Source of the DNA: a virus
Lineage: Duplodnaviria; Caudoviricetes
Virus record (IMG/VR): IMGVR_UViG_3300029258_003568
Coordinates: 1 to 56,274 of that record
Strand: one strand, 5' to 3'
Length of the DNA stretch: 56,274 nt
In this document: positions 18,308 to 49,888 of the stretch, piece by piece
Numbering within the stretch: the first letter of the stretch is position 1
Layout of the letters: every line of letters starts with the position of its first letter
Program-made: the position numbers and the translations under genes
The notes under the pieces: model-generated
The model's input: the letters and a program-made list of their open reading frames with translations, nothing else
Told to the model about the DNA's origin: nothing
Database searches by the model: none

Positions 18308-19753
18308 TTATTGGTGTGGTTCCAGCCGGATGTATGTTATCTGCCGGTTCTCTATTCCGATTCGGATGCCGATCTCGAGGAGTGCGGTGTTGATTTCCAG
18401 GTTGGTCATGTCGGGACGGTTGGCCAGGAGGTGAGTGATGGTTTGTTGGCTGACGCCCAGGTCCGGGATGTTGGTGAGTCGCGCCTCGAGGGTCGCTCTC
18501 TCTGTTTGTAGTTTGTCTAGATCCTCGAGTAGGATGTCGTCCGAGGTGCGATACATTTGCGGGTCGAGGTGGCCAGAGGCGAGGGCGAGGGCGAGGCGCT
18601 GTCGTTTTTGTTCGAGGTTCTCGAGGGTGCGTCCGATTTCGGCCAGGCGGGTGGGCAGGTCGCGGGTGTCGTGGGAGGTCAGGGCGGCGGCGAGGGCGTC
18701 CAGGTTATTGTGATCGGCCAACCAGGTGAGGAGGGTCTTCAGTACGAGGTCTTCTTTGATCTGGTTATTGTGGCAGGTGCGGCTGTGCTGATGTGTGCTG
18801 CATCGGAGCCGGTAAGCCCGGCTGCTTCTGCGGATCATGTTGCCGCCACAACGACTACAGATGGCTACCTGGTAAAGTGGCGAGCCGGCACCGCGCCGGC
18901 CCGTACGCTTCTCGCGCCGGCCGCGTTCTCTGAGGACGGCTCGATAGGTGTCGGTGTCCCAGAGCGCGGGAAAGTGAGCCGAGGGTTGGCTGTTCCTGAC
19001 GTCGCCGGCGGTGACGTAGCCGGCGTATATGTCGTTGAGCATCATGTCGCGGACTGTGCCATATCGCCAGGTCTGCGCGTAGGGCGGACGGTGGATTGAT
19101 GCGTCCAAGACGGTGGCAATGCTTTGATAGGTCTCGCCACGCAAGTACAGGCCGGTGGCGAGTTTGACAGCTCCGATGTGGTCGTCGAATTCGGCGCCGA
19201 TGGTTTTGCCTCGATCGTCGCGGACGGCGCGGTAGCCGAGTGGCCAGTGGTTGAGATGGAGTCCTCGCTGAATGCGTTTTCTGATGCCGGCTTTGTAGTA
19301 GCGCACCCGGCGCCGTTGCTCTTCGCCGGCGCGCACGCTTTGGATGGCGTAGACGTAGCGCGCGCCAACGGTCTTTTGACCAATGGTGTGTGGGGCGCTG
19401 GCCAGGTAGACTTCGGCGCCGGATTTTTCGACGAGGCTGACGACTTGGTTGGAGAGGGCGGGATCGCGGCCGAGCCGGTCGGGGTCGATGGCGTGGAGTA
19501 TGTCAAGGTTGGCGTTTTCGCAGTCCTGGCGGAGCTGGCGGTAGGCGGGCATGGTGGCTTCGGCGTCGGTCCAAAAGATGAGATCGCGGGTGTGACCGGG
19601 GATGCGGTAGATACGGACGATGTGGCCGCCGATGGCTCGGGCGAATTCCCGGCCGGCACGCTCTTGGTCTTCCAGGCTGATTTTGTCGTCGCCGGCCTGG
19701 TGCTTGGAGGAGACGGCGCACCAGATGGCGATGCGGACGGGCCGGTCGGTCAT
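18308..19753 (-). CDS. int: Large serine recombinase (integrase)
   Basis: N-terminal AIWCAVSS..Q, DPDRLGR, recombinase domain (PLGY, NDIYAG), Zn ribbon CSRC..RC..C, coiled coil. Confidence 0.9.
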   Translation of the reverse strand: MTDRPVRIAIWCAVSSKHQAGDDKISLEDQERAGREFARAIGGHIVRIYRIPGHTRDLIFWTDAEATMPAYRQLRQDCENANLDILHAIDPDRLGRDPALSNQVVSLVEKSGAEVYLASAPHTIGQKTVGARYVYAIQSVRAGEEQRRRVRYYKAGIRKRIQRGLHLNHWPLGYRAVRDDRGKTIGAEFDDHIGAVKLATGLYLRGETYQSIATVLDASIHRPPYAQTWRYGTVRDMMLNDIYAGYVTAGDVRNSQPSAHFPALWDTDTYRAVLRERGRREKRTGRRGAGSPLYQVAICSRCGGNMIRRSSRAYRLRCSTHQHSRTCHNNQIKEDLVLKTLLTWLADHNNLDALAAALTSHDTRDLPTRLAEIGRTLENLEQKRQRLALALASGHLDPQMYRTSDDILLEDLDKLQTERATLEARLTNIPDLGVSQQTITHLLANRPDMTNLEINTALLEIGIRIGIENRQITYIRLEPHQ

Positions 19754-19774: not shown

Positions 19775-20875
19775 TCACTCATCATCTGCTGAGTATATGT
19801 CTGTGAGGTGAATGTTTTTCCCGTCGTAGGTCCCAATGATTACGACGTATTGTCCAAAATACGATCTGACTAGATCGTCTAGTCCTTCTTCTACTAATAC
19901 ATTGTATTCGTTGTCATCTGTGGTCAGGCCGATGATGTCTTTTTGTCGGGATGTTGCGTAATCGAGCAGTCCTTTTACTTTTATCGGGGTGTGTTTCACG
20001 TCCTTTTCATCGGATTCGGGGGGTGGCAATACGATGTCTCTGCGCTGTCTTGTCAGGGTGACAGATTGCTTTGTGCTGGCAAAGCCCACCAGGCTGACTT
20101 TTTCACCGTCGGGTGCTACATCTCGGGCCATAGATACAAAGTGTCGATAGTATGCTTGTTCGGGGATGCGTTCTTTTAGTTTGTCTTCGTTGGATTTGCT
20201 GATGTGTTCGATCCCTGTTAAAAATTCGTCGATCACTTGTGCTGCGTCGAAAAACAGGGGCATTTGTCTGTGGTCTTCTGTGCGTATGAGCTTGAAGGCT
20301 ATGGCAAAACTGTGTTGATCCGGGATTACTAATGCCTGGGTAAAGGGTTTATATATCTGTGCGACTCGGCCCGCTCGCTGATAGTTTCTGTGCATCAATC
20401 GCTGTACGGTCCGATCAATTAGGGAGCGGGTCTTTTCGATTCTGCTGATGAATTCGCTGTAGAGGATCATTCCAGGGCCGACGGCCTTGCCCTGCAGGGA
20501 TAATTGTAGGGCTTCATCTTCGAGCTCTTCTCCACGTTCTTGAAGGTGCAATTGGAATTCGATTTGTTCGTATAGATTTTTCAGGTCTTGTTCTGTTTTT
20601 GAAGGGGGATAGCCAGATAGGCCCTGGGCGACGAGTCGTTGGGCGGCATGGAGTTCTTTGCATTGATATGCGAGGGAGGCCGCGCTAAGATATAGGATGG
20701 AGCGTGTGGGTTCTGATGATGCATGATGTGGAATAAGGTCTGCCGCCTGGGATTCGTACTCATAGGCCTGGTATGCCAGGGTTGTGGTCTTTTCTAGATT
20801 TCCTTCATGATGGGCCACCATGGCCAGTTGGGCCAGTTTCATGGCTTCATTATGTAGCTCACGAACGTTGCTCAT
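19775..20875 (-). CDS. TPR-like N-domain protein, partner in a putative defence or toxin-antitoxin pair
   Basis: RELH..AM.LA...EPTRSILYLSAASLA helical domain; low GC; ATGA overlap with the upstream gene. Confidence 0.7.
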   Translation of the reverse strand: MSNVRELHNEAMKLAQLAMVAHHEGNLEKTTTLAYQAYEYESQAADLIPHHASSEPTRSILYLSAASLAYQCKELHAAQRLVAQGLSGYPPSKTEQDLKNLYEQIEFQLHLQERGEELEDEALQLSLQGKAVGPGMILYSEFISRIEKTRSLIDRTVQRLMHRNYQRAGRVAQIYKPFTQALVIPDQHSFAIAFKLIRTEDHRQMPLFFDAAQVIDEFLTGIEHISKSNEDKLKERIPEQAYYRHFVSMARDVAPDGEKVSLVGFASTKQSVTLTRQRRDIVLPPPESDEKDVKHTPIKVKGLLDYATSRQKDIIGLTTDDNEYNVLVEEGLDDLVRSYFGQYVVIIGTYDGKNIHLTDIYSADDE

Positions 20876-21423
20876 ACCTTTACCATCTTTGATCGAGGTT
20901 GGCTGAATTCAACGATGATAATAAATGCCGGTAGATCACTTTTGCGGTCCAAACGTCTTAATTTTTTTCTTATTCTTCCATCAATTGTGTTGTTCTCATT
21001 TTCTTCAAGTATCCCGGAGACTTCCAGGCGGGCTGCTCGATTGAAAATCAGGTTGTTGTCTTGACTTTGTGGTGTCAAATAGTAGTCGATGGTAGTTCCT
21101 GTTCTGGCTTGTTCTACTCCTGTGAATTCGGTCAGTTCTTCTAAAAGAAGTAGTGCGATGGCACATGCTGCGTTGTCGGTTGATCGCCGGAGATCTGCAT
21201 AGCATTTTACCAGTTGGTCCGTCACTTCACCCGACCAGCAAATCTCATAGATTGGGTTGGAATCTCGATAGTTTGCTGTTAGTTTTACCCCGCTCTTGTG
21301 GCTGTTATGGTGGAAGCAGATCATGCAGTTTTGTTTATAGAAGCCTGCTGCTCCTTGCGGGATGACGGGTACTCGATCCGCTAGGGATTCCAGTGCGAGT
21401 GTCCTGGTGGGGTTTACTTTCAT
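20872..21423 (-). CDS. Putative PD-(D/E)xK-like nuclease
   Basis: GTTIDYYL...ARLEVSGI acidic motif; low GC. Confidence 0.5.
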   Translation of the reverse strand: MKVNPTRTLALESLADRVPVIPQGAAGFYKQNCMICFHHNSHKSGVKLTANYRDSNPIYEICWSGEVTDQLVKCYADLRRSTDNAACAIALLLLEELTEFTGVEQARTGTTIDYYLTPQSQDNNLIFNRAARLEVSGILEENENNTIDGRIRKKLRRLDRKSDLPAFIIIVEFSQPRSKMVKV

Positions 21424-21434
21424 TTAGTATCCTC

Positions 21435-21463
21435 ATTATAGCATATTTGTTTCAAATTTTCAA
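21435..21463 (-). promoter_or_regulatory. Near-consensus sigma70 promoter of the moron
   Basis: TTGAAA-17bp-TATAAT with extended TG, 11 nt before the ATG. Confidence 0.75.
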
Positions 21464-30333: not shown

Positions 30334-31212
30334 GTGGGAGCATACCTGCAGGAACTAGGAAAAAGCATCTCATTTGGCCGATTGTCGCTGATGGGCAAGG
30401 TATTGTGGCCGATGCTCCTGGCCGCGTCGGACGATCAGGGCCGGGGACTGGCCGACGCGGATGTTCTCAAGTGGACGGTCTGCCCAAATGTGGCCGAAAT
30501 CACGATCGATGACATTCCCACCATCCTGGACGAGATGGTAGCCCAAAAGATGATCGTGCTGTACGAGGACTCCCGTGGGCGAGCAATATACCAGATCATC
30601 AACTGGTGGGTTCATCAAAAACGACGGTTCGCTCGCCCATCACTGTACGACGCCCCCGAGGGATGGACGGACCGCGTCAGATTACAACAGGGACGAAAAC
30701 AAACCCTGATAAACTGGGACCAACCGGGGGGATTTATCGGCCAGGAGAGTCTGCCTGAGCCTGAGACGAATAGTGGTAAACAAAACAACGGACAATACGG
30801 TGGACAATACGGTGAGCAATACGAGGGACAACACGGGGGACCTGAACTAAACCGATCTGAACTAAACCAACCTAAACCACCCCCCCCTACCCCCCCCGAG
30901 GGCGGTGGTGGTGGTGGAGATTCTCTAGGACAATGGCTGGAAATCTACGAACAAAACATAACCGAACAAATCCGGCCGGCAGCACGAGAGCAAATTGAGA
31001 CCGTGTTCCGAGATCCACACGTGAATTACGAATTGTGGTCGGATGCCATCGGTATCGCTGTGGCAAACAACCAGTTAAAGCTCTCATACGTGCTGGGAGT
31101 CATCCGCAAGCGCAGAAATGGCAGCGGACCCGGACCGCCCGCTACCGGTAAGAAACCTATCAAGCTGACGGGTAGTTTACCGGGACGAGGGAGACGAGAT
31201 GAGCCAGACTGA
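30334..31212 (+). CDS. Phage replication initiator (DnaD-like C-terminus)
   Basis: SDDQGRG and YQIINWW..Q N-domain; LSYVLGVIRK; precedes dnaB; internal direct repeats. Confidence 0.75.
   Translation: MGAYLQELGKSISFGRLSLMGKVLWPMLLAASDDQGRGLADADVLKWTVCPNVAEITIDDIPTILDEMVAQKMIVLYEDSRGRAIYQIINWWVHQKRRFARPSLYDAPEGWTDRVRLQQGRKQTLINWDQPGGFIGQESLPEPETNSGKQNNGQYGGQYGEQYEGQHGGPELNRSELNQPKPPPPTPPEGGGGGGDSLGQWLEIYEQNITEQIRPAAREQIETVFRDPHVNYELWSDAIGIAVANNQLKLSYVLGVIRKRRNGSGPGPPATGKKPIKLTGSLPGRGRRDEPD
30778..30879. repeat. Iteron-like repeats within the initiator gene (candidate origin)
   Basis: 12-bp ggacaatacggt-type units x4, then ctgaactaaacc x2. Confidence 0.65.
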
Positions 31213-32632
31213 AGCGTTGTTATCCAACCAAGAAGCCGAGCAGAGTGTCCTCGGGGCGTTGCTAATCGACCCGGCGGCGATCTCGAAAGTTTTGACGACA
31301 TTGTATCCCGGTGACTTTTGGGTCAAGCGAAACGAGTGGGTGTACCAGGCGATCTTGGACCTGCACCACGCCGGCACACCGGTGGATCCCGTTACGCTAG
31401 CCGACCGGTTGGAAGCCACTGGGCAGTTGAAGGAACTGGGTGGCGCGGCGTACTTGGCCGAGCTTTTCACGGCCACGCCGACGAGCTTGCATGTAGTGCA
31501 CTATGCCAACATTGTCAGCCGTCTGGCGACCTCACGGAAGCTGGTGCAGGCGGCGACCCGGATCGCCCAGCTGGCACACGACCAGAATAACGACCTGGAT
31601 GCTGTCTTTGCACAAGCCCGCTCGTTGATAGACAGTGTGGCGCCGCTTGATTTGGGCCGGGCGGTGCTATTTTGGCAGGACGCGCTGTCGTGGTACCTGG
31701 ACCGCCAGGGCGAGCGGACCGAGGAGGTCGAGGCCCAGGCTTCGGGCGAGCAGCTCGAGCGGTTGACGTTCCCGTGGATGGCATTGCGGGAGCGGGTGAG
31801 CTGGATTAGGCCGGGCATGATTGTGCTGGTCGGCGCCGAGTCGGGCGTGGGTAAGACAATGTTCCTCGAGTGCTGCGCAGAAGAGTGGGCCAAGCAGGGG
31901 TATCGCGTCGTTTTCTTTCACTTTGAACTCTCTCACCAGGTAATGCTCGACCGGCTGATGTGCCGCCAGGCAGGTGTGCCGATGGCGGAACTGGAGACCG
32001 GAGCACTAGACAACCGGGTGACTGAAACGGTCGCCGAGTTATACGATTGGATTGGCCGGATCAATTACGTGCATTGTCCCGGCTGGCCGATGAGCCGCGT
32101 TGTTGGCACAGCGCGGCAGCTGGCTGCCAAGGGTGAGTGTGACGTGATTATGGTCGATTATCTCCAGAAGGCGTATCTGCCGGCAAAGACGGCAGGCCTG
32201 ACGCCTGCACAGGTCCGTGGCCAGCAGGTGGAGGTCCTTAAGACATTGGCGGAGCAGATGGAGATGCCGATCCTACTGACGTCACAGCTCAACAGGACGT
32301 CGCAGCAATACGGCCGCAAGGTGAGGTTCTCCATCAGAGACACGGGGGAGGCCGACGAGAAGGCGAATGTCGTCCTGCTGCTGGACCGAGAGATCCTGGA
32401 TGCAGACGCCACGATGGAATATGACCTGGATGAGCACCGGCGGGTCACCGTTGAGGCGGAATGTGGAGAATTGTCGCCTATCTTAAAGGTGCGGTGCGAC
32501 AAAAACACCCTCGGTCGAACGGGGGACGATGAACTGTTGATGGATCCGTCCAGATTTTGGATTATGGATAAAGCGAATGTCGCGCAACGGCCTCTGAGTT
32601 GGGACCGGTCGGCGACGATGGAAGCTCTATAA
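31199..32632 (+). CDS. dnaB: Replicative DNA helicase
   Basis: EAEQSVLGALL N-domain, GAESGVGKT Walker A, MVDYLQ, TSQLNR. Confidence 0.92.
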   Translation: MSQTEALLSNQEAEQSVLGALLIDPAAISKVLTTLYPGDFWVKRNEWVYQAILDLHHAGTPVDPVTLADRLEATGQLKELGGAAYLAELFTATPTSLHVVHYANIVSRLATSRKLVQAATRIAQLAHDQNNDLDAVFAQARSLIDSVAPLDLGRAVLFWQDALSWYLDRQGERTEEVEAQASGEQLERLTFPWMALRERVSWIRPGMIVLVGAESGVGKTMFLECCAEEWAKQGYRVVFFHFELSHQVMLDRLMCRQAGVPMAELETGALDNRVTETVAELYDWIGRINYVHCPGWPMSRVVGTARQLAAKGECDVIMVDYLQKAYLPAKTAGLTPAQVRGQQVEVLKTLAEQMEMPILLTSQLNRTSQQYGRKVRFSIRDTGEADEKANVVLLLDREILDADATMEYDLDEHRRVTVEAECGELSPILKVRCDKNTLGRTGDDELLMDPSRFWIMDKANVAQRPLSWDRSATMEAL

Positions 32633-41189: not shown

Positions 41190-41240
41190 CAAGCGATGGC
41201 AAATTGGTAGAGCAGGCGCTTTTGTTGTGAGGGTATATTG

Positions 41241-42101
41241 ATGAAACCACGGCCGGCATTGCGGTATTTCGGAGGAAAATGGCGACTTGCGCCGTGGATC
41301 ATCGGTCATTTTCCCGACCACGTTTGCTACGTCGAGCCGTTCTGTGGTGCGGCTTCGGTGTTTCTGCGAAAGAGGCCTGCTCAGTTCGAGGTGATCAACG
41401 ATCTCGATGGTGAGGTCGTCAATTTCTTTCGGATGCTGCGGGATCGCACTGATGAGTTCATTTATGCTATCCAGGCGACGCCGTACAGCCGGCGGGAATA
41501 CGAGCTGGCCTGGGAGTGGGAGAACATTGGCTCGGAGCTTGATCCGCTGGAGCGGGCCCGGCTATTCTACATTCGGTCATGGCAGGGCTGGGCATTCCGG
41601 GAGGCTCAGAGGGGGAGAGGGGATGTTGTTGTATATCCTACCTGGCGGATCCAGCATTCAAACAATCGCGGGAAGTCGGTAATAACTGACTGGAACAAGG
41701 TCGATCACTTGCCTGCACTCGCCGGGCGGCTCAAGATGGCGTTTATCGAGAACGATGATGCTATCGACATCATTGGACGGTATGACCGACCCGAGACGTT
41801 ATTCTACCTGGACCCGCCGTATCTGTCCGAACTGCGGTCGGAGCGATGGCGGCGGGCGTATCATTGCGAGGTGGACCGCGACTATCACGTCCGGCTTCTG
41901 GACCTCCTGATGGAGATCCGGGGGATGGCGATCATCAGCGGTTATCCGTCCGGGCTGTACAACGAGACGTTGGCGGGTTGGCACCGTTTCGAGACGCGGT
42001 CTCGGACGACAAATACGTCGAATCCGACGACTGAGGTGATCTGGGTATCGCCGTCGGCAACCGAAGCTAGGCTGCCGTTGTTTCAGAATTGCGGCGTGTA
42101 A
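41241..42101 (+). CDS. DNA adenine methyltransferase (Dam/D12 class)
   Basis: YFGGK, YVEPFCG, DPPY. Confidence 0.92.
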   Translation: MKPRPALRYFGGKWRLAPWIIGHFPDHVCYVEPFCGAASVFLRKRPAQFEVINDLDGEVVNFFRMLRDRTDEFIYAIQATPYSRREYELAWEWENIGSELDPLERARLFYIRSWQGWAFREAQRGRGDVVVYPTWRIQHSNNRGKSVITDWNKVDHLPALAGRLKMAFIENDDAIDIIGRYDRPETLFYLDPPYLSELRSERWRRAYHCEVDRDYHVRLLDLLMEIRGMAIISGYPSGLYNETLAGWHRFETRSRTTNTSNPTTEVIWVSPSATEARLPLFQNCGV

Positions 42102-42126
42102 GGGTCAAAGATGAAAGGAGAGAAAA

Positions 42127-42378
42127 GTGGAAGTGGGCGATTATTTTCGTTTTGCAATCGGCGATCTGGCGCGGCACGTGACGGATGGAAACGAGAGAGC
42201 AATCCGGCTGATGCTGGTCGGTCTGGGCGCGGAGATAGATCGGCATACTATAGATCCGGGTGAAATGGTGCACCGCGACTTTGTCATTGGTCTGTTGGCA
42301 ACATACGGGGGCACCGAAACCGGCGACCGCTTGAGAAAAGTTTTAGGCTACAGACTACCCATTAACGGGGAACGCTAA
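42127..42378 (+). CDS. Hypothetical protein
   Basis: AAGGAG RBS. Confidence 0.55.
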   Translation: MEVGDYFRFAIGDLARHVTDGNERAIRLMLVGLGAEIDRHTIDPGEMVHRDFVIGLLATYGGTETGDRLRKVLGYRLPINGER

Positions 42379-42431
42379 TTATGGAGTCCATAATGTTGAT
42401 GAGAAGATTTTATGATGGGAGGGAGTGAGCG

Positions 42432-42839
42432 ATGGATGAGAGAACGCAGAAGCTATTCTATATTGGGGCAGATGTCTATTTCGATCTTGATATCGTCAAG
42501 GTTGACGCGATTTTGGAGAAGGCAGGATTAAATGCTGTGGCAGATGACCTGGAGGTATGCCAAGAGGCGGTCAGGACCGCTATTGGTGAGGTTCATTTCG
42601 GAAATAGGATGCGGGCATTTGGGGGACTGGTGATCGTGGGGTCGCGTCTATCAGCATTCACCAAGTTAAAAACGGAACTCGCTGCGCTTTTTTTCGCAGA
42701 GCCAACTATTCAGCTATCGTTGAGCCCACTGGAGGCATGGTGCATTCTATCTGTGAGAACTATCCAGAGCGTTGTCGCCAAGACGCCAGCGCTGCGGGCT
42801 GTTGCCGATGACGGTTGGGGCGGTGTTGCGGGGGAGTAG
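42432..42839 (+). CDS. Hypothetical protein
   Basis: GGAG RBS. Confidence 0.55.
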   Translation: MDERTQKLFYIGADVYFDLDIVKVDAILEKAGLNAVADDLEVCQEAVRTAIGEVHFGNRMRAFGGLVIVGSRLSAFTKLKTELAALFFAEPTIQLSLSPLEAWCILSVRTIQSVVAKTPALRAVADDGWGGVAGE

Positions 42840-42842
42840 AGG

Positions 42843-43307
42843 ATGGCAATAGTAAAGGCGATAACGCTCTGGCAACCCTGGGCCAGCCTCGTTGTTCATG
42901 GCCTGAAAGAATATGAAACGAGGTCGTGGTATACAAGGTACCGGGGTCCACTGGTCATCCATGCTGCAATGCGATCAGTAAGAAAAAGCGATTTCAATTT
43001 TTATTATGATCTGTTGGAAAGGTGCAATCTCTGGAAGAAAGAATTGGTGCCCCGTGCTGCCCTCGTTGGAATCGTGGAATTGGAAAATATTTTTCCTGCG
43101 GAGGATGTAACAGTAGGCAAATGGGAATTGCATTTGGGTGATTATTCTAGCGGGCGGTTTGCCTGGAAGCTTGTGAATCCTCGTCCATTGCCTTGTTCCA
43201 TACCTATGCGTGGCCAGCAAGGGTTGTGGTCTGTTGTCTGGGATGACGACTGGCTATCTAATCCTCCGGTAAAGATGAAAGAAGATTTTCGTGATTACCG
43301 TTGGTAA
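42843..43307 (+). CDS. ASCH domain protein
   Basis: KAITLWQPWASL..GLKEYETRSW, RGPLVIHA, RGQQGLW. Confidence 0.88.
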   Translation: MAIVKAITLWQPWASLVVHGLKEYETRSWYTRYRGPLVIHAAMRSVRKSDFNFYYDLLERCNLWKKELVPRAALVGIVELENIFPAEDVTVGKWELHLGDYSSGRFAWKLVNPRPLPCSIPMRGQQGLWSVVWDDDWLSNPPVKMKEDFRDYRW

Positions 43308-43782
43308 GGTGAGATTGATTATTTCTCAGGTCGGTCACATTTTTATGCGAGTTGGTATTTTTCCTGGGCGCTGTGGCCGCGATTATTATTTGCAGAGGAT
43401 TGGTAGAGTGCGGGCAAGAGAGCTACTCGCACATATGGGTGCCGGTGATGAGATCCAGGCTGAGTATATCGAGGCTGACGATGTATTGTTATTTAGCCAG
43501 CCAAGGGGCTAATAGGGAAGAGATGATGGCAGAACGGGGAACAACCAGCAAAATACTACTTATCGGGGTTGTTAGTTTTGTAGAGTCAATGCGTGTCCTC
43601 GACGAGGTCACCGTTCGTTATAAGCAGCGTGACAACGATGGTCAAGCCATCTGGATCGAAGTTGGGAATAGCGCCAGTGGTATCGTCATCCAGGTGGAGC
43701 GGTTCAATGGTGAGACGTTCGAGATCGACGCAGCGCTGACAGCCGAAGCGATCTGGGTCGTGGCAAAGCATCTGGATGCGCG

Positions 43783-44091
43783 ATGACTACAGTACGCGAA
43801 CTACATGACAAAGCAATGTTTCTAGCTCAGCTGGCTGTGGTAGCGCGTGACCGGGACAAGGACGAAGCCCGCGCACGTGATCTAGCGCGGCGGGCGTATG
43901 AGCTAGAGCGACAAGCTGCTGAGCTAGTCCCGGTGACCAAAGAGTCAGAGCCTACCCGGTCTGTACTTTATCGCAGTGCTGCCTCTCTGGCCTACCAATG
44001 CCGGGAATTCGAGGCTGCTCTGGAGCTCGTCGCTGAGGGAGTTACGGTTGCAGATCCAGGTCAGACAAGCCTGGGCTGGATCACACGATGA
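43783..44091 (+). CDS. Stand-alone paralog of the N-terminal domain of 19775-20875
   Basis: VRELH..AM.LAQLA...SEPTRS.LY.SAASLAYQC.E shared. Confidence 0.85.
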   Translation: MTTVRELHDKAMFLAQLAVVARDRDKDEARARDLARRAYELERQAAELVPVTKESEPTRSVLYRSAASLAYQCREFEAALELVAEGVTVADPGQTSLGWITR

Positions 44092-44103
44092 AGGGAGGTA
44101 TAT

Positions 44104-44331
44104 GTGATAGAGGGGGTTGATTATCTTTTATGGGCGTTCAAATTTCACCTGACAAAAGATCTCGATCCGGTGGATGCCTGGCACGAGGCTCTCGGAAATT
44201 TTGCTGAGGTGTACGACCCCGGAGCCGATCCGAGGCCGATAACAACTTTGTCGAGGGCGATAGAGGTGACTCTGCGGTATATCGGTTCACAAGAGGACGA
44301 TAAGGGTGAGGAGAAGGGAGAAAGTGAGTAG
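44104..44331 (+). CDS. Hypothetical protein
   Basis: GGAGG RBS. Confidence 0.5.
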   Translation: MIEGVDYLLWAFKFHLTKDLDPVDAWHEALGNFAEVYDPGADPRPITTLSRAIEVTLRYIGSQEDDKGEEKGESE

Positions 44332-44788
44332 GAATATACGGCTGAGATACCGTGATGATTATAGGACCAACCAGGTAATGATTTTAGAGTGGCGACTGCA
44401 CGAAAAGGGTATTGAGCTGCTCGTTGGGGGACCTGGTTTTGAGATCGGTGGATTCAGTATTGGTATCTATGCACGGCGGCAGATACAAAATGTATTGGAT
44501 ACATTCACTAACCAGCACTCTATTCCCAAGTACGATTGGGTGGAGCACCCAAGGCTGTACACGGCCATTTATACATTTACCAAGCCGGTAAAGTTTGCGT
44601 CATATCAGGGTCACAAAACACGGCTGGCAATTCATGCCGAGGAATGGACGGAGTATGATTCAATTGCCAGAACCGTCACCGTCCATGAGCAGGGCGAGCG
44701 GAGCTGGTGGCGGTGGTTAGGCCGCTATCGGTTTTGGGACGCGTGTGAATTTCTGAGGCATGGTATTGCCATAGGAGAGGAGAGGTAA
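44306..44788 (+). CDS. Hypothetical protein
   Basis: ORF in the early operon; exact start uncertain. Confidence 0.5.
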   Translation: MRRREKVSRNIRLRYRDDYRTNQVMILEWRLHEKGIELLVGGPGFEIGGFSIGIYARRQIQNVLDTFTNQHSIPKYDWVEHPRLYTAIYTFTKPVKFASYQGHKTRLAIHAEEWTEYDSIARTVTVHEQGERSWWRWLGRYRFWDACEFLRHGIAIGEER

Positions 44789-44790
44789 GG

Positions 44791-45192
44791 ATGGCAAAGC
44801 AAGAAAAAAAGCTGGATCTATCAAAAGTATTCCAGTCCTTAGTTGAGATAGCGAACAGAGGATACAGTTGCAGTTGGGATGAGGGAAGAGAGGTAAGGGT
44901 CGAACGCCGTCTGCTACTTGGGGAAGTTTTCTGGGATGATGAGGTGAAACCCGTCGATGCCGCGATCACTTACAGGAAGGACAGCGTGGACGGGGGTGGA
45001 ACAATACAGATTTCTCCCTTTGGAAACTCTGAAATCAAGGTGGACCTCCTCATTACAGGCAAGGAGTTCCTGATGATCGTCAGGTTTCTATGTGAGGAAG
45101 GATTCGAGGAGCTCGGTGGGTACTTGATGGGAGAGAGGCATGGCGAGAGAATTCAGGATAGAGGAATTAGTGAGGATAAAAAAGACAGGTGA
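44791..45192 (+). CDS. Hypothetical protein
   Basis: GAGG RBS. Confidence 0.55.
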   Translation: MAKQEKKLDLSKVFQSLVEIANRGYSCSWDEGREVRVERRLLLGEVFWDDEVKPVDAAITYRKDSVDGGGTIQISPFGNSEIKVDLLITGKEFLMIVRFLCEEGFEELGGYLMGERHGERIQDRGISEDKKDR

Positions 45193-45334
45193 GTTGGTGA
45201 AGATCATGCAAGTCGGCGGCAAGTACTGCTTGAGGTACCGTGTCGGATCCGTCACGAACCCGGCTCAAGAGGGTTGGGCGTACGAAACCGATTTGGATCT
45301 TCCTCTCCTACAGGAGTGCAGTGATGGGCATTAA
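45140..45334 (+). CDS. Small SH3-like hypothetical protein
   Basis: FRIEELVRIKKTGELVKI pattern. Confidence 0.45.
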   Translation: MAREFRIEELVRIKKTGELVKIMQVGGKYCLRYRVGSVTNPAQEGWAYETDLDLPLLQECSDGH

Positions 45335-46166
45335 GACCCAGATCGAGTGGGCGGATAGTACTCAGAACCTGATGATGGGATGCGATGGCTGCGAGTTGTG
45401 GTCCAGAACGCGGGGAGGTACCTGCTACGCGGCGGATATAATCCGTCGGTACGCCGGCCGGCGGGGCTATCCGCCGGCGTTCGACCGGCCAACCGTTTTC
45501 CCCGCGCGCCTCGGTGCCATGCTGCGCTGGCCGGACTTGACCGGGACAGAGCGGCCGGATAAGCCCTGGCTCAACGGTTATCCTCGTATTGTTTTCCTGA
45601 ATGACATGGGGGACACCTGGACTGAGAGCCTCCCTCTGGATTGGCTCGATCCCTACGTTGAGCCGATGGCCACAAGTCCTCACATTTATATGATCCTGAC
45701 GAAGCGTGCCCGGCGCATGGCAGCCTATTTCCAGCGCCTTGGTTTTGTCCCGGCCAATTTCTGGCTGGGTGTGACGGTCACTGGCCGGGCCACTCTGGCC
45801 CGGTGGCGTACCCTGCAGGCCGTGCCGGATGCTACCCGGTTCTTGTCCGTCGAGCCGCTGCTCGAGGACCTGGGTCAGCTGGATCTCTCTGGCCTTGGTG
45901 CAGTCCTGGTGGGTGCCGAGTCCGGCTCTGGGGCCCGGCGGATGGAGCCCGCCTGGGTCGACAATGTGTTCGATGCTGCCAGGGTTGCCGGGATCAACTT
46001 CTTTTTCAAGCAATGGGGAAAGTTGGCCAACAATCCGGATCCGGCAGATCCCACGGCCAGGAAAAATGGCGGGATCTCGAAGGGTGGAGCTCAATATCGG
46101 GGTCGAACCTGGCGGGAGATGCCCCCTATAAGGAAATCATCAGAGAAAAAGTTGATTGACAAGTGA
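45324..46166 (+). CDS. DUF5131 (phage Gp37/Gp68) family protein
   Basis: TQIEWADST.N..GC.GC..CYA, NDMGD, LTKR, FLSVEPLL, GAESG, FFFKQWG. Confidence 0.88.
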   Translation: MGIKTQIEWADSTQNLMMGCDGCELWSRTRGGTCYAADIIRRYAGRRGYPPAFDRPTVFPARLGAMLRWPDLTGTERPDKPWLNGYPRIVFLNDMGDTWTESLPLDWLDPYVEPMATSPHIYMILTKRARRMAAYFQRLGFVPANFWLGVTVTGRATLARWRTLQAVPDATRFLSVEPLLEDLGQLDLSGLGAVLVGAESGSGARRMEPAWVDNVFDAARVAGINFFFKQWGKLANNPDPADPTARKNGGISKGGAQYRGRTWREMPPIRKSSEKKLIDK

Positions 46167-46184
46167 GAACTTGTATGGTATCAT
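46156..46184 (+). promoter_or_regulatory. Promoter upstream of the late operon
   Basis: TTGACA-17bp-TATCAT with extended TG. Confidence 0.75.
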
Positions 46185-46381: not shown

Positions 46382-46510
46382 GATACAAAATTTTTAATGG
46401 CTATTGTGAGATGAGGACAGTCCCGGCCTGACTGATCTCACGGCTAGCTAGCGACGAGGGGCACTCACAGGCTGGGATAATGTGAGTGCCAGCGGTGTGA
46501 CCCGGAAAGG

Positions 46511-46555
46511 AGCGCCGCCTTCCCCGAGGAGGGGAGGGCGGCGCTTTTTGTTTTT
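46511..46555 (+). terminator. Rho-independent terminator in the late leader
   Basis: agcgccgccttcccc...ggggagggcggcgct followed by ttttgttttt. Confidence 0.85.
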
Positions 46556-47760: not shown

Positions 47761-48320
47761 CGTGGGTCGATCAAGAAGAGTCGTTGCCCTGGGAGCAGCG
47801 GCTCGATGAGACGACAGAGCAATACCGCGCATTTTGCGATTACCGGGATATGGCCAAGGCCAGTCTTAACGCGCTTTGGGAATATTACCGGTCCACTTGC
47901 GCCGATCCACCGACCAAACGTCTGCGGACGCTCGCCGAGTGGAGCAGCAACTTCAGCTGGGTGGCTCGGCGAAAAGAGTGGTGGGCATTTGCCGACGAGA
48001 TCAAGAGGGAAGCGGCCCTGTTGGCCACCAGGGAGATGGGCGAGCGTCAGGCTCGCGACGCCGTCAAGATCCAATCGGCGGCGATGGCAATTCTCGATCT
48101 ATTGGCCGGCTACGACGAGATGACCGGAGAGTTCGTTTTGAGAGAGGATGCCGAATACCGGTTCCAGGACGTGGTGCGGCTTTTCAAGACCGGCGTGGAG
48201 GCTGAACGCGTCGCCCGTGGCGAGGCGGCGACCATCATTGAGAAGCGCCGGCGGAAAACAGATCTCTCTCAACTCTCCGATGAGGAGCTGGATGCGTTGG
48301 CCGACGAGGAGGACGACTAA
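47757..48320 (+). CDS. terS: Terminase small subunit (putative)
   Basis: PWEQ..ET..QY.AF..YRDM, WS..FSWVAR, DLSQLSDEEL; directly upstream of terL. Confidence 0.7.
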   Translation: MTWVDQEESLPWEQRLDETTEQYRAFCDYRDMAKASLNALWEYYRSTCADPPTKRLRTLAEWSSNFSWVARRKEWWAFADEIKREAALLATREMGERQARDAVKIQSAAMAILDLLAGYDEMTGEFVLREDAEYRFQDVVRLFKTGVEAERVARGEAATIIEKRRRKTDLSQLSDEELDALADEEDD

Positions 48321-49888
48321 TGGCGACTTCCTCTGCGCTGCGGGAATTGGCCCAGCGCGAGCGCGCCCGCCGGCGGTTTTATCATTACTGCCGCCGGGTC
48401 AATCCTCATTATCCTGATGATGCTCCACACCTGCGATTGTTGTGCAGGACATTGGAACAGGTCGAGCGGTTTGTGGTCACGGAAGGTGCGGAAGGTATCG
48501 GCAGATTGATGATCTTTATGCCACCGCGACACTGGAAGTCGCAGACCTCGAGCGTGCTATTTCCGACGTGGATCTTGGGCCGCAATCCGGATGTGCCGAT
48601 CATCATGGCCAGCTATGCTGGCGATCTGGCGCATAAACATTCGCGGCAGGCGCGCAATATTATTCTGCTCGATAACGAGTTCTCGGTGCTCTTTGGAAAA
48701 AAGAGCGACCGAAAGGAGCCTGTGAGTCTCTCGGCCGACTCGCAGGCAGTACAAGAATGGTCGATTGACCGTCACATCGGGGGGATGCGCGCTGCCGGCG
48801 TAGGTGGCGGTATCACCGGGAGTGGATGTCGTATCCTCATCATCGATGATCCGCACAAGGACAGAAAAGAGGCGGAGAGCAAGACCATTCGGGATGATAT
48901 AGATGATTGGTTCCGGTCGACGGCTTATACGCGAGTCGAGGGCAACGGGGCCATCATCATTATCATGACGCGGTGGCACCGCGATGATGAGGCCGGGCGG
49001 CTGCTGAAGCGGATGAAGGAAGATCCTCTCGCCGATCAATGGCATGTGCTCAAGCTGCCGGCGTTGGCCACCGAAAGCGATCCGCTGTCCCGGCAGCCCG
49101 GCGAAGCGCTGTGGCCGGAATATCAATCTGTCGAAAAGTTGCATGCGATCCGGGCCAATACGTTGCGGTACGAGTTCAATTCGTTGTTCCAGCAGGAACC
49201 GATCTCGCCCGAGGACAGTGTGGTCAATCCTGCGTGGTTTGAGACTGTAGACCACGCACCTGCAGGATTGCGCTGGATGCGGTATTGGGACCTGGCCGTG
49301 TCGACCAAAAAGCGCGCCGATTTTACGGCTAGTGCACGGGGAGCGCTATCCAGCGATGGCTATCTCTACATCGCCGACATGGTGCGGGGCCGGTGGGAAT
49401 GGCCCGACGCACACGGTCAGATCGTCGCTCTGGCCGCCATGGAGCCCGGTGTTGCTATCGGGGTGGAGACAAACGCATTTCAGCTGGCCGCGTTCCAGCA
49501 GTTGATGCGCGAGCCGGCGCTGGCGAATCGTGAGATCCGCCAGGTGCATTCAGAAAGTGACAAGCTCTCGCGAATGTTACCCTGGGCACGGCGGGCAAAG
49601 GTCGGCAAGGTGCGGCTCGTGCGGGGACCATGGATCGCCGCCTTCCTGGAGGAGGCCACCGATTTCCCGGCCGGACAGAACGACGACCAGGTGGACGTCG
49701 TCAGCGGCATCACCGAGATGCTGGCCAACACCGGGCCGGCGGCCGGTCAAATAATCAATGAAATAGACCCGGCAATCTACAAGAACAACCCTGCCGAACG
49801 CTATGGCTGGCGCTACGGCTGGCGTGTTCCCGATGATACGAGTCTGTTTCCTAAGCGGAAGGCATGTCTATGGCAAAGAAGGGGCTGA
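48320..49888 (+). CDS. terL: Terminase large subunit
   Basis: MPPRHWKS, ILIIDDP, MTRWH.DD, YWDLA, NDDQVD. Confidence 0.95.
   Translation: MATSSALRELAQRERARRRFYHYCRRVNPHYPDDAPHLRLLCRTLEQVERFVVTEGAEGIGRLMIFMPPRHWKSQTSSVLFPTWILGRNPDVPIIMASYAGDLAHKHSRQARNIILLDNEFSVLFGKKSDRKEPVSLSADSQAVQEWSIDRHIGGMRAAGVGGGITGSGCRILIIDDPHKDRKEAESKTIRDDIDDWFRSTAYTRVEGNGAIIIIMTRWHRDDEAGRLLKRMKEDPLADQWHVLKLPALATESDPLSRQPGEALWPEYQSVEKLHAIRANTLRYEFNSLFQQEPISPEDSVVNPAWFETVDHAPAGLRWMRYWDLAVSTKKRADFTASARGALSSDGYLYIADMVRGRWEWPDAHGQIVALAAMEPGVAIGVETNAFQLAAFQQLMREPALANREIRQVHSESDKLSRMLPWARRAKVGKVRLVRGPWIAAFLEEATDFPAGQNDDQVDVVSGITEMLANTGPAAGQIINEIDPAIYKNNPAERYGWRYGWRVPDDTSLFPKRKACLWQRRG

What the first reader, a model, noticed from the sequence alone, without database searches (positions are those of the whole stretch)
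43783..44091. Stand-alone copy of the moron partner's N-domain in the lytic operon: built-in antidote or decoy
Seen: about 50 of 87 aligned residues (hand count) are identical to the N-terminus of 19775-20875; the copy ends right after this domain, lies about 23 kb away and is on the lytic strand. Known: temperate phages often encode inhibitors of their own defence systems, and orphan antitoxin mimics act as anti-defence. Inference: this domain neutralises the putative nuclease, so the phage carries defence plus self-immunity, or counters related host systems.
Basis: partly seen in the sequence, partly recalled or inferred. Interest (0 to 1): 0.8.

Follow-up and report, generated by a model that had tools for sequence, protein, structure and literature searches.

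The report
Phage stand-alone copy of nuclease-partner domain
A phage carries a short stand-alone copy of the helical domain that normally links a partner protein to a nuclease-like protein, and this copy may switch such two-gene systems off, though no binding has been shown.

Summary
ORF 43783-44091 (102 aa) matches the N-terminus of ORF 19775-20875 (366 aa) at 53/95 identical residues, E 1e-30.

The shared part is a TPR-like helical domain of a large unnamed family: 3144 cluster representatives at E<=1e-3. In bacteria this domain is the constant N-terminus of genes that follow a homologue of the 183-aa nuclease-like gene 20872-21423.
- 72 of 82 domain genes in 80 genome loci have that upstream gene.
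- 10 of 10 U183 homologues found in 401 Chloroflexota genomes are followed by such a partner.
- The C-terminus varies: none, a ~250-aa part ending in a beta-barrel (OB-like), helicases, or a weak TIR-like match.

In the 5 other viral records the domain stands alone without U183 (Fisher p 8e-5). It lies near DNA methyltransferases or between replication genes and terminase.

The window copy is intact and translationally coupled. It keeps all 11 invariant residues but lacks the fifth helix.

Best reading, confidence 0.42: a decoy or antidote that occupies U183-type nucleases. Binding is untested. Chromosomal orphans in genomes without U183 argue for caution. The scan had not noted this domain on other DNA.

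The parts
43783..44091 (+). Stand-alone N-domain gene (102 aa). It has four TPR-like helices plus a 16-residue tail unlike the family, and lacks helix 5.
43352..43786 (+). Upstream ORF (up to 144 aa, no family). Its stop overlaps the ATG of the 102-aa gene (ATGA).
44104..44331 (+). Downstream ORF (75 aa, no family). GTG start 13 nt after the stop of the 102-aa gene, preceded by AAGGGAGG. Same reading frame as the 102-aa gene.
19775..20875 (-). 366-aa partner protein: N-domain, a middle alpha/beta part and a C-terminal beta-barrel (OB-like).
20525..20875 (-). N-domain of the 366-aa protein (residues 1-117, five helices). This is the paralogue of the 102-aa gene.
20872..21423 (-). U183, a 183-aa nuclease-like protein. 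Its stop overlaps the start of the 366-aa gene by 4 nt. D113, E134 and K154 are invariant.
21435..21463 (-). Promoter-like site (TTGAAA, 17 nt, TATAAT, with TG) just upstream of U183.
41238..42101 (+). Context: DNA methyltransferase 1.7 kb upstream of the 102-aa gene, in the same gene array.
42843..43307 (+). Context: ASCH-domain gene.
45240..46166 (+). Context: DUF5131 / phrog_2045 gene. Homologues lie within a few kb of the orphan copies in L003, L090 and L017.

Best explanation
The 102-aa gene encodes a minimal, free-standing version of the TPR-like domain through which partner proteins are coupled to U183-type nuclease-like proteins. It would be made from the rightward (lytic) gene array and would occupy the site on U183-type proteins that normally holds the partner's N-terminus. 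This would keep the nuclease silent or cut it off from the partner's sensing C-terminus.

The targets would be related systems of the host (counter-defence). In this phage they could also include its own integrase-adjacent U183 plus 366-aa pair during lytic growth.

Shown: homology, intactness, the genomic coupling of the domain to U183, and orphan copies in phages.
Inferred: physical binding, inhibition, timing of expression, and that the U183 pair is an immune or toxic module.
For: 1. The domain is the constant element next to U183.
- 72 of 82 domain genes in 80 genome loci have a U183 homologue directly upstream (55 full length, 17 fragments or cut at a contig end), usually with overlapping stop and start.
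- In metagenome loci the figure is 71 of 81.
- 10 of 10 U183 homologues found in 401 Chloroflexota genomes are followed by a partner with this N-terminus.

2. The C-terminus is interchangeable: none (25 short U-linked genes), ~250 aa, SNF2/DEAD helicase with NOV_C, DEAD helicase with a sub-threshold Cas3-like C-terminal match, or weak sub-threshold TIR-like and DUF5919 matches. The N-domain is therefore the coupling module.

3. Genes without U183 are all short forms. The one exception is L066, the second gene of a tandem pair.

4. In viral records the domain is always an orphan: 0 of 5 are U-linked and there is no U183 in the whole records, against 72 of 82 in genomes, Fisher p 8.1e-5.

5. The orphans sit in phage accessory regions.
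- DNA methyltransferases lie near the window copy, L017 and L106.
- The orphans lie between replication genes and the large terminase in the window (4.2 kb upstream of it) and L006; L003 has the terminase 3.1 kb downstream.

6. The orphans arose several times: 6 changes on the careful tree, at least 3 forced by well-supported branches.

7. The window copy is not decaying. It has all 11 invariant residues, scores 1.40 bits per profile position against a median of 1.28 (rank 133 of 157), has an ATGA overlap upstream, and shows no difference in the contigs of 4 sequencing runs from 3 studies.
Against: - No binding, toxicity, defence or expression data exist.
- The copy lacks helix 5 and differs at 3 of the 15 nearly invariant positions, which the U-linked short forms examined keep.
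- Chromosomal orphans lie among housekeeping genes.
- 6 of 10 genomes with N-domain genes that lack a full upstream U183 have no U183 match at all. One of them is the host of the prophage-like locus L017. N-only proteins may therefore work without U183.
- The U183 pair matches no PADLOC model.
- The viral sample is small (5 records, only 1 of them at least 90% complete). It was found through a pattern that demands the EPTRS motif.
- The window copy is not specially close to its own 366-aa gene (56% against up to 65% to others).
Confidence: 0.42

Rival explanations
1. The 102-aa protein is a working small TPR-like protein whose role does not involve U183. It might bind the same ligand or trigger (a phage or host protein) that the domain recognises in the long forms, or act as an adaptor or chaperone for something else.
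For: - Short orphans occur in bacterial chromosomes among housekeeping genes: M20 peptidase, aspartate carbamoyltransferase, MacB/FtsX and a response regulator.
- 6 of 10 genomes with such genes have no U183 match.
- The fold resembles peptide-binding TPR modules, though only weakly.
Against: - In 72 of 82 genome cases the domain is glued to U183.
- U183 was not found without it (10 of 10).
- MAG genomes are incomplete, so a missing U183 is weak evidence.
Confidence: 0.28
2. The 102-aa protein is an alternative partner, not an inhibitor. In lytic growth it would pair with the phage's own U183 to form a 'short-form' system like the U183 plus ~127-aa pairs of cyanobacteria, giving the nuclease another regulation or target.
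For: - 25 U-linked short forms show that U183 plus the N-domain alone is a complete unit.
- Some loci carry two N-domain genes behind one U183: L044, L066 and L157.
Against: - The other phage records with orphans have no U183.
- The window copy lacks helix 5, which the U-linked short forms examined keep.
- U183 sits behind its own promoter in the leftward integrase-side array.
Confidence: 0.12
3. The gene is a leftover of an older, lost copy of the system and has no function.
For: - It is truncated before helix 5.
- Its GC3 of 0.495 is unlike the core genes at 0.69-0.77.
- One similar truncated copy (L116) is the sister of a long form and may be a recent break.
- The cassette that holds the gene may be missing in some co-occurring strains (weak).
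Against: - The frame is intact and all invariant residues are kept.
- The profile score is above the family median.
- It is translationally coupled in a tight operon, and no remnants lie nearby.
- Orphans recur in several phage lineages.
Confidence: 0.1

Closest known systems
Phage orphan antitoxin-like counter-defence: AdfN against DarTG1 (PMC11825919; search listing and abstract seen)
   Same: A phage carries, without the toxin, a homologue of the component that keeps a two-gene defence module harmless. Divergent copies occur in unrelated phages.
   Different: AdfN is an enzyme that reverses the toxin's DNA modification. Here the orphan is a non-enzymatic helical domain that would act by occupancy. 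The target system is uncharacterised, and this phage also carries the full system.
Viral cas-gene homologues acting as anti-CRISPRs (bioRxiv 10.1101/2023.06.24.545427; search listing and abstract seen)
   Same: Orphan homologues of defence-complex subunits sit in viral genomes within putative anti-defence clusters. Some assemble into defective complexes.
   Different: A different system. Here only one domain of a subunit is copied, and nothing has been tested.
Toxin-antitoxin and nuclease-plus-regulator defence pairs such as Hachiman HamA/HamB (recalled, not read here)
   Same: A small nuclease-like gene is translationally coupled to a partner. In some family members that partner is a helicase.
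   Different: U183 hits no DUF1837/HamA model in Pfam or PADLOC. No DNA-binding antitoxin domain was found. Toxicity is untested.
TPR peptide-binding modules (Hop TPR2A, Sgt2, designed CTPR)
   Same: Antiparallel helix pairs. Foldseek gives weak matches (E 0.03-0.1), and a profile hit to a designed CTPR has E 5.6e-6.
   Different: No Pfam TPR family is matched. The EPTRS..SAASLA motif is particular to this family.

Membership tests
Unnamed N-domain family (N-terminus of U183 partners) | Significant match to the family profile over helices 1-4 | tested here: met
   Profile E 3.7e-39 over positions 1-93. 133 short and 187 long relatives. The profile includes the query as 1 of its 40 rows.
Unnamed N-domain family (N-terminus of U183 partners) | Invariant residues H8, E42, A45, E56, P57, T58, R59, L62, S65, A66, A70 | tested here: met
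   All 11 are present in the 102-aa protein.
Unnamed N-domain family (N-terminus of U183 partners) | Fifth helix after the G-x-P-P turn | tested here: not met
   The 102-aa protein ends in a tail unlike the family. Positions 87, 89 and 91 differ.
Unnamed N-domain family (N-terminus of U183 partners) | U183 homologue directly upstream | tested here: not met
   No U183 match near 43783. The only one in the window is at 20875-21423.
Phage orphan antitoxin-like / defence-subunit mimic (AdfN type, viral cas type) | Homologue of a defence-module component encoded in a phage without the rest of the module | tested here: inconclusive
   5 of 5 other viral records carry the domain without U183, but this phage carries U183 elsewhere. 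That the module is a defence system is unproven.
Phage orphan antitoxin-like / defence-subunit mimic (AdfN type, viral cas type) | Neutralises the cognate system | not testable with these tools
   This needs co-expression and infection assays.
Type II toxin-antitoxin pair (for U183 plus partner) | Two adjacent, coupled genes | tested here: met
   4-nt overlap in the window. Adjacency in 72 of 82 cases.
Type II toxin-antitoxin pair (for U183 plus partner) | Antitoxin with a DNA-binding domain for autoregulation | tested here: not met
   No HTH, RHH or other DNA-binding family in Pfam for the 102-aa or 366-aa proteins.
Type II toxin-antitoxin pair (for U183 plus partner) | Toxin arrests growth and the antitoxin rescues it | not testable with these tools
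   No computation can stand in for this assay.
PD-(D/E)xK nuclease fold (for U183) | Core fold with acidic residues and a lysine at the active site | tested here: inconclusive
   The model is confident (pLDDT 94.1). D113, E134 and K154 are invariant. The Foldseek hits are endonuclease-like (tRNA-splicing endonuclease, SPARDA, MGME1, Hjc), but the best E is 1.8e-3 with TM 0.3. No Pfam hit.
Hachiman (HamA/HamB) | HamA (DUF1837) nuclease model match | tested here: not met
   No Pfam or PADLOC match at E<=0.1.
Pfam TPR families | Match to a TPR profile above threshold | tested here: not met
   No Pfam family for either protein. There is only fold-level resemblance.

The most novel reading that the evidence does not exclude
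U183 plus an N-domain partner is a large, unnamed family of modular immune systems: a small nuclease held by a TPR-like adaptor that carries exchangeable sensor or effector domains. Phages have repeatedly captured the bare adaptor as a four- or five-helix decoy, which would be a new anti-defence protein family. This temperate phage carries both. It would arm its lysogen with the system and switch it, or the host's versions, off when it goes lytic.
Probability: 0.3. Interest if true: 0.8.

Novelty: new variant of a known kind. Interest (0 to 1): 0.6.

Why it matters
If true, this would name two things at once.
- A widespread two-gene nuclease-plus-adaptor system that no library yet describes.
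- A phage inhibitor derived from that system's own adaptor domain.

That would add a clear case to the idea that counter-defence genes evolve by copying pieces of defence systems. It would also give a 102-residue tool to switch the system off.

The presence of weapon and antidote in one temperate phage would bear on how prophage-borne defences avoid hitting their own phage. All of this can be tested with simple co-expression assays.

Tried and rejected
- **Complex prediction** of U183 (alignment A2) with the 102-aa protein (alignment A1): no verdict. Score 0.30 against a mark of 0.32, second run 0.00, controls not run. It counts neither for nor against binding.
- **Family libraries:** Pfam, PHROGs, NCBIfam and PADLOC gave nothing usable for the 102-, 366- and 183-aa proteins. 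PDB sequence-profile searches gave only a designed-TPR hit. The ESM Atlas gave only 'hypothetical protein' clusters.
- **Viral scans with single proteins** found nothing. I searched the five viral records directly instead.
- **GenBank phages (INPHARED):** no tblastn match for the 102-aa or U183 proteins.
- **Expression:** no RNA holder was listed.
- **Selection by dN/dS:** not possible. The contigs of the 4 runs laid (3 studies) show no difference in the stretch, and the nearest homologues are only 53-66% identical.
- **Host:** not determined. The relatives of the large terminase carry no organism names.
- **AU test** of one clade for five phage orphans: not finished in the time allowed.
- **Remnants:** a search for a fragmented long-form gene or a second U183 around 43783 found none, so 'piece of a broken long gene' is rejected.
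- **Recent internal duplication:** rejected. The two copies are 56% identical and are not sisters on either tree.
- **Literature:** only two searches were run, and neither could target this unnamed family. I do not claim it is absent from print. Supplementary files were not consulted.

Full report
**The record.** The window is a complete viral record of 56,274 bp with direct terminal repeats. The rightward (+) array holds these genes:
- a DnaB-like helicase at 31199-32632;
- a DNA methyltransferase at 41238-42101;
- an ASCH gene at 42843-43307;
- a DUF5131 gene at 45240-46166;
- the large terminase at 48320-49888, followed by structural genes.

The leftward (-) array holds a serine integrase at 18308-19753, the 366-aa gene at 19775-20875 and the 183-aa gene at 20872-21423. 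A near-consensus promoter-like site lies just upstream of the 183-aa gene.

**The observation.** The 102-aa product of 43783-44091 aligns with residues 1-94 of the 366-aa protein at 53/95 identities, E 1e-30. There is no third copy.

The gene overlaps the stop of the upstream ORF (ATGA). A Shine-Dalgarno-like AAGGGAGG and the GTG of the next ORF follow 13 nt later. No remnant of the rest of the 366-aa protein, and no second 183-aa gene, lies elsewhere in the window. It is therefore a stand-alone gene, not a shard of a broken long gene.

**What the domain is.** None of Pfam, PHROGs, NCBIfam or PADLOC names the 102-, 366- or 183-aa proteins. The domain family is nevertheless large.
- 187 long relatives of about 365 aa.
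- 133 short relatives of 56-179 aa.
- 3144 cluster representatives at E<=1e-3 and 2429 at E<=1e-10 in an exhaustive profile search. In the 150 best listed, the domain is nearly always at the extreme N-terminus.

An alignment of 40 short forms shows 11 invariant residues centred on an EPTRS..SAASLA motif.

The AlphaFold model of the 366-aa protein is confident (pLDDT 90.9, pTM 0.88). It shows five N-terminal helices, a middle alpha/beta part and a C-terminal beta-barrel. Foldseek gives only weak matches, to TPR modules and to lysyl-tRNA synthetases. I read the latter as matches to the barrel (OB-like), but the aligned residue ranges were not shown, so this is inference.

The 102-aa protein has helices 1-4 and all 11 invariant residues. 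It lacks helix 5 and differs at 3 of the 15 nearly invariant positions.

**What the domain goes with.** I fetched 80 genome loci, the best of 204 confirmed matches among 208 pattern hits. I searched them with profiles of the 183-aa protein (U183) and of the domain.
- Of 82 domain genes, 72 have a U183 homologue directly upstream. 55 of these are full length. 17 are fragments or cut by a contig end; seven of the 17 were recognised only in a stop-to-stop fragment search.
- 10 have none. 9 of these have at least 600 bp of upstream sequence.
- Long forms are U-linked in 42 of 43 cases. The exception is the second gene of a tandem pair (L066).
- Short forms are U-linked in 25 cases and unlinked in 9. 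Five genes cut by contig ends are all U-linked.
- In 79 metagenome loci (81 genes; L111 was dropped because it is the same record as L003), 71 are U-linked. Only 2 of the 10 unlinked genes have at least 600 bp upstream.

The reciprocal test agrees. U183 homologues were found in 10 of 401 sampled Chloroflexota genomes. All 10 are followed by a gene that matches the long-form profile from its N-terminus. 9 of these also match the short N-domain profile at E<=1e-3.

The C-terminus behind the domain varies:
- nothing;
- the ~250-aa part seen in this phage;
- an SNF2/DEAD helicase with a NOV_C domain (L010, 1262 aa);
- a DEAD helicase with a sub-threshold Cas3-like C-terminal match (L042, 987 aa);
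- weak, sub-threshold matches to TIR-like and nucleoside 2-deoxyribosyltransferase models plus DUF5919 (L029, 476 aa).

The constant unit is therefore U183 plus the N-domain, and the domain behaves as the coupling module. This is genomic evidence for a functional link. It is not proof of contact.

**U183.** Its model is very confident (pLDDT 94.1). D113, E134, G137, K154 and F173 are invariant in 43 sequences. The Foldseek hits are all endonuclease-like folds: tRNA-splicing endonucleases, the SPARDA nuclease, MGME1 and Hjc. They are weak, with best E 1.8e-3 and TM about 0.3. 'Nuclease-like' is a fair label. The substrate and the chemistry are unknown.

**Orphans in phages.** Pattern scans of IMG/VR with the short-form and long-form alignments found five other viral records with the domain.
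- In all five the gene is short: 108, 112, 117, 119 and 221 aa.
- Each has at least 1.2 kb of upstream sequence and no U183 there.
- The whole records hold no U183. Their estimated completeness is 52, 97, 14, 70 and 68%.
- 0 of 5 against 72 of 82 gives Fisher p 8.1e-5.

The sample is small. It was drawn with a pattern that requires the EPTRS motif, so motif conservation in these five cannot be counted as evidence.

Three further cases sit beside phage-type genes.
- Locus L017, from a Chloroflexota MAG, has an orphan flanked by two DNA methyltransferase-like genes, a DUF5131 gene and a DnaB-like helicase homologous to the window's.
- L106, a 90-aa orphan, lies 450 bp upstream of a phage-type DNA methyltransferase.
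- L146 lies next to a phage-type radical SAM gene.

The orphans lie upstream of the large terminase in the window, L003 and L006. In the window and L006 they follow replication genes. DUF5131 homologues lie within a few kb in the window, L003, L090 and L017.

**Origin.** Two trees were built.
- The quick tree has 152 N-domain rows. Rows whose profile match started after position 8 or ended before position 85 were dropped, as were the duplicate loci L087-L089 and L111. The window's two copies fall in one well-supported set of 35 rows with the long forms whose named members come from Chloroflexota MAGs. They are not sisters.
- The careful tree has 48 rows that I chose: that set, outgroups, and the truncated orphans L106 and L116. 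The 9 orphan rows need 6 changes, at least 3 of them forced by strongly supported branches. The window copy groups weakly with L004 and L017. L106 groups with the window's own 366-aa gene. L116 is sister to a long form.

Orphans therefore arose repeatedly. The window copy is not a recent internal duplicate. Its best identity is 65%, to a foreign long form, against 56% to its own.

**State of the window copy.**
- It scores 1.40 bits per profile position, against a median of 1.28, ranking 133 of 157. The profile holds it as 1 of 40 rows.
- Its GC3 is 0.495. This is like its accessory neighbours (0.47-0.59) and the U183 pair (0.45-0.50), and unlike the core genes (0.69-0.77).
- The stretch is held by five DNA runs from four studies. 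In the four runs laid (three studies) their contigs show no difference, so no dN/dS can be computed.

**What argues for caution.**
- Chromosomal orphans lie among ordinary genes.
- Of 10 genomes holding N-domain genes with no full upstream U183, 6 show no U183 match, 2 show only fragments and 2 show a full copy elsewhere. These are mostly MAGs, so absence is weak evidence. N-only proteins may still have a life of their own.
- The window copy lacks helix 5.
- Nothing shows that U183 pairs are toxic or protective.

**Verdict.** Its key inference, that this domain is what ties the partner to the nuclease-like protein, gains strong comparative support. The requested orphan copies in other phages exist. 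The most likely mechanism is occupancy of U183-type proteins by a free adaptor domain. That would serve as counter-defence in general and possibly as self-immunity in this phage. I give this 0.42.

The closest known cases are phage orphan antitoxin-like AdfN (PMC11825919; abstract) and viral cas homologues that act as anti-CRISPRs (bioRxiv 10.1101/2023.06.24.545427; abstract). I rate it a new variant of a known kind, on an uncharacterised system, and directly testable.

Noticed in passing
window 41885-45292: In runs X4 and X5 one contig joins 41885 to 45292, skipping 3406 bp, with the letters between unknown and only 30 letters on the shorter side. Contigs break at 41856/41885 and 45292/45321. 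Depth is about 29 inside the stretch against 46-54 in the flanks. The cassette with the ASCH gene, the 102-aa gene and five small ORFs may be absent or replaced in some co-occurring strains. This is weak evidence.
   Followed up: partly
window 44089-44106: The TGA stop of the 102-aa gene and the GTG start of the next ORF (44104-44331) are in the same frame, 321 nt from start to start. Read-through would give a product of about 180 aa. The same frame is expected by chance one time in three, and a Shine-Dalgarno-like AAGGGAGG lies between them.
   Followed up: no
L044 5974-6735; L066 787-2092; L157; L140 4272-6648: Some bacterial loci carry two N-domain genes in tandem behind one U183 homologue, or two whole pairs in tandem.
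   Followed up: no
L010 724-4512; L042 2633-5596; L029 6001-7431: The N-domain is fused to an SNF2/DEAD helicase with NOV_C, to a DEAD helicase with a sub-threshold Cas3-like C-terminal match, and to a part with weak TIR-like and DUF5919 matches. Each follows a U183 homologue. The architecture resembles modular defence systems.
   Followed up: partly
window 19775-20875 (model): In the viral structure library the 366-aa model matches an uncharacterised 381-aa protein of Leptospira phage LE1 (E 1e-5, 352 columns) and a 270-aa Myoviridae protein (E 2.3e-4).
   Followed up: no
G017:C19:173187-173466: One Chloroflexia genome with a full pair also holds, 6.5 kb away on the other strand, two adjacent fragments of an N-domain. 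It looks like a broken copy.
   Followed up: no
window 46507-46549: A strong terminator-like hairpin (19 pairs) and a near-consensus promoter-like site at 46156-46184 separate the accessory gene array from the packaging genes.
   Followed up: no
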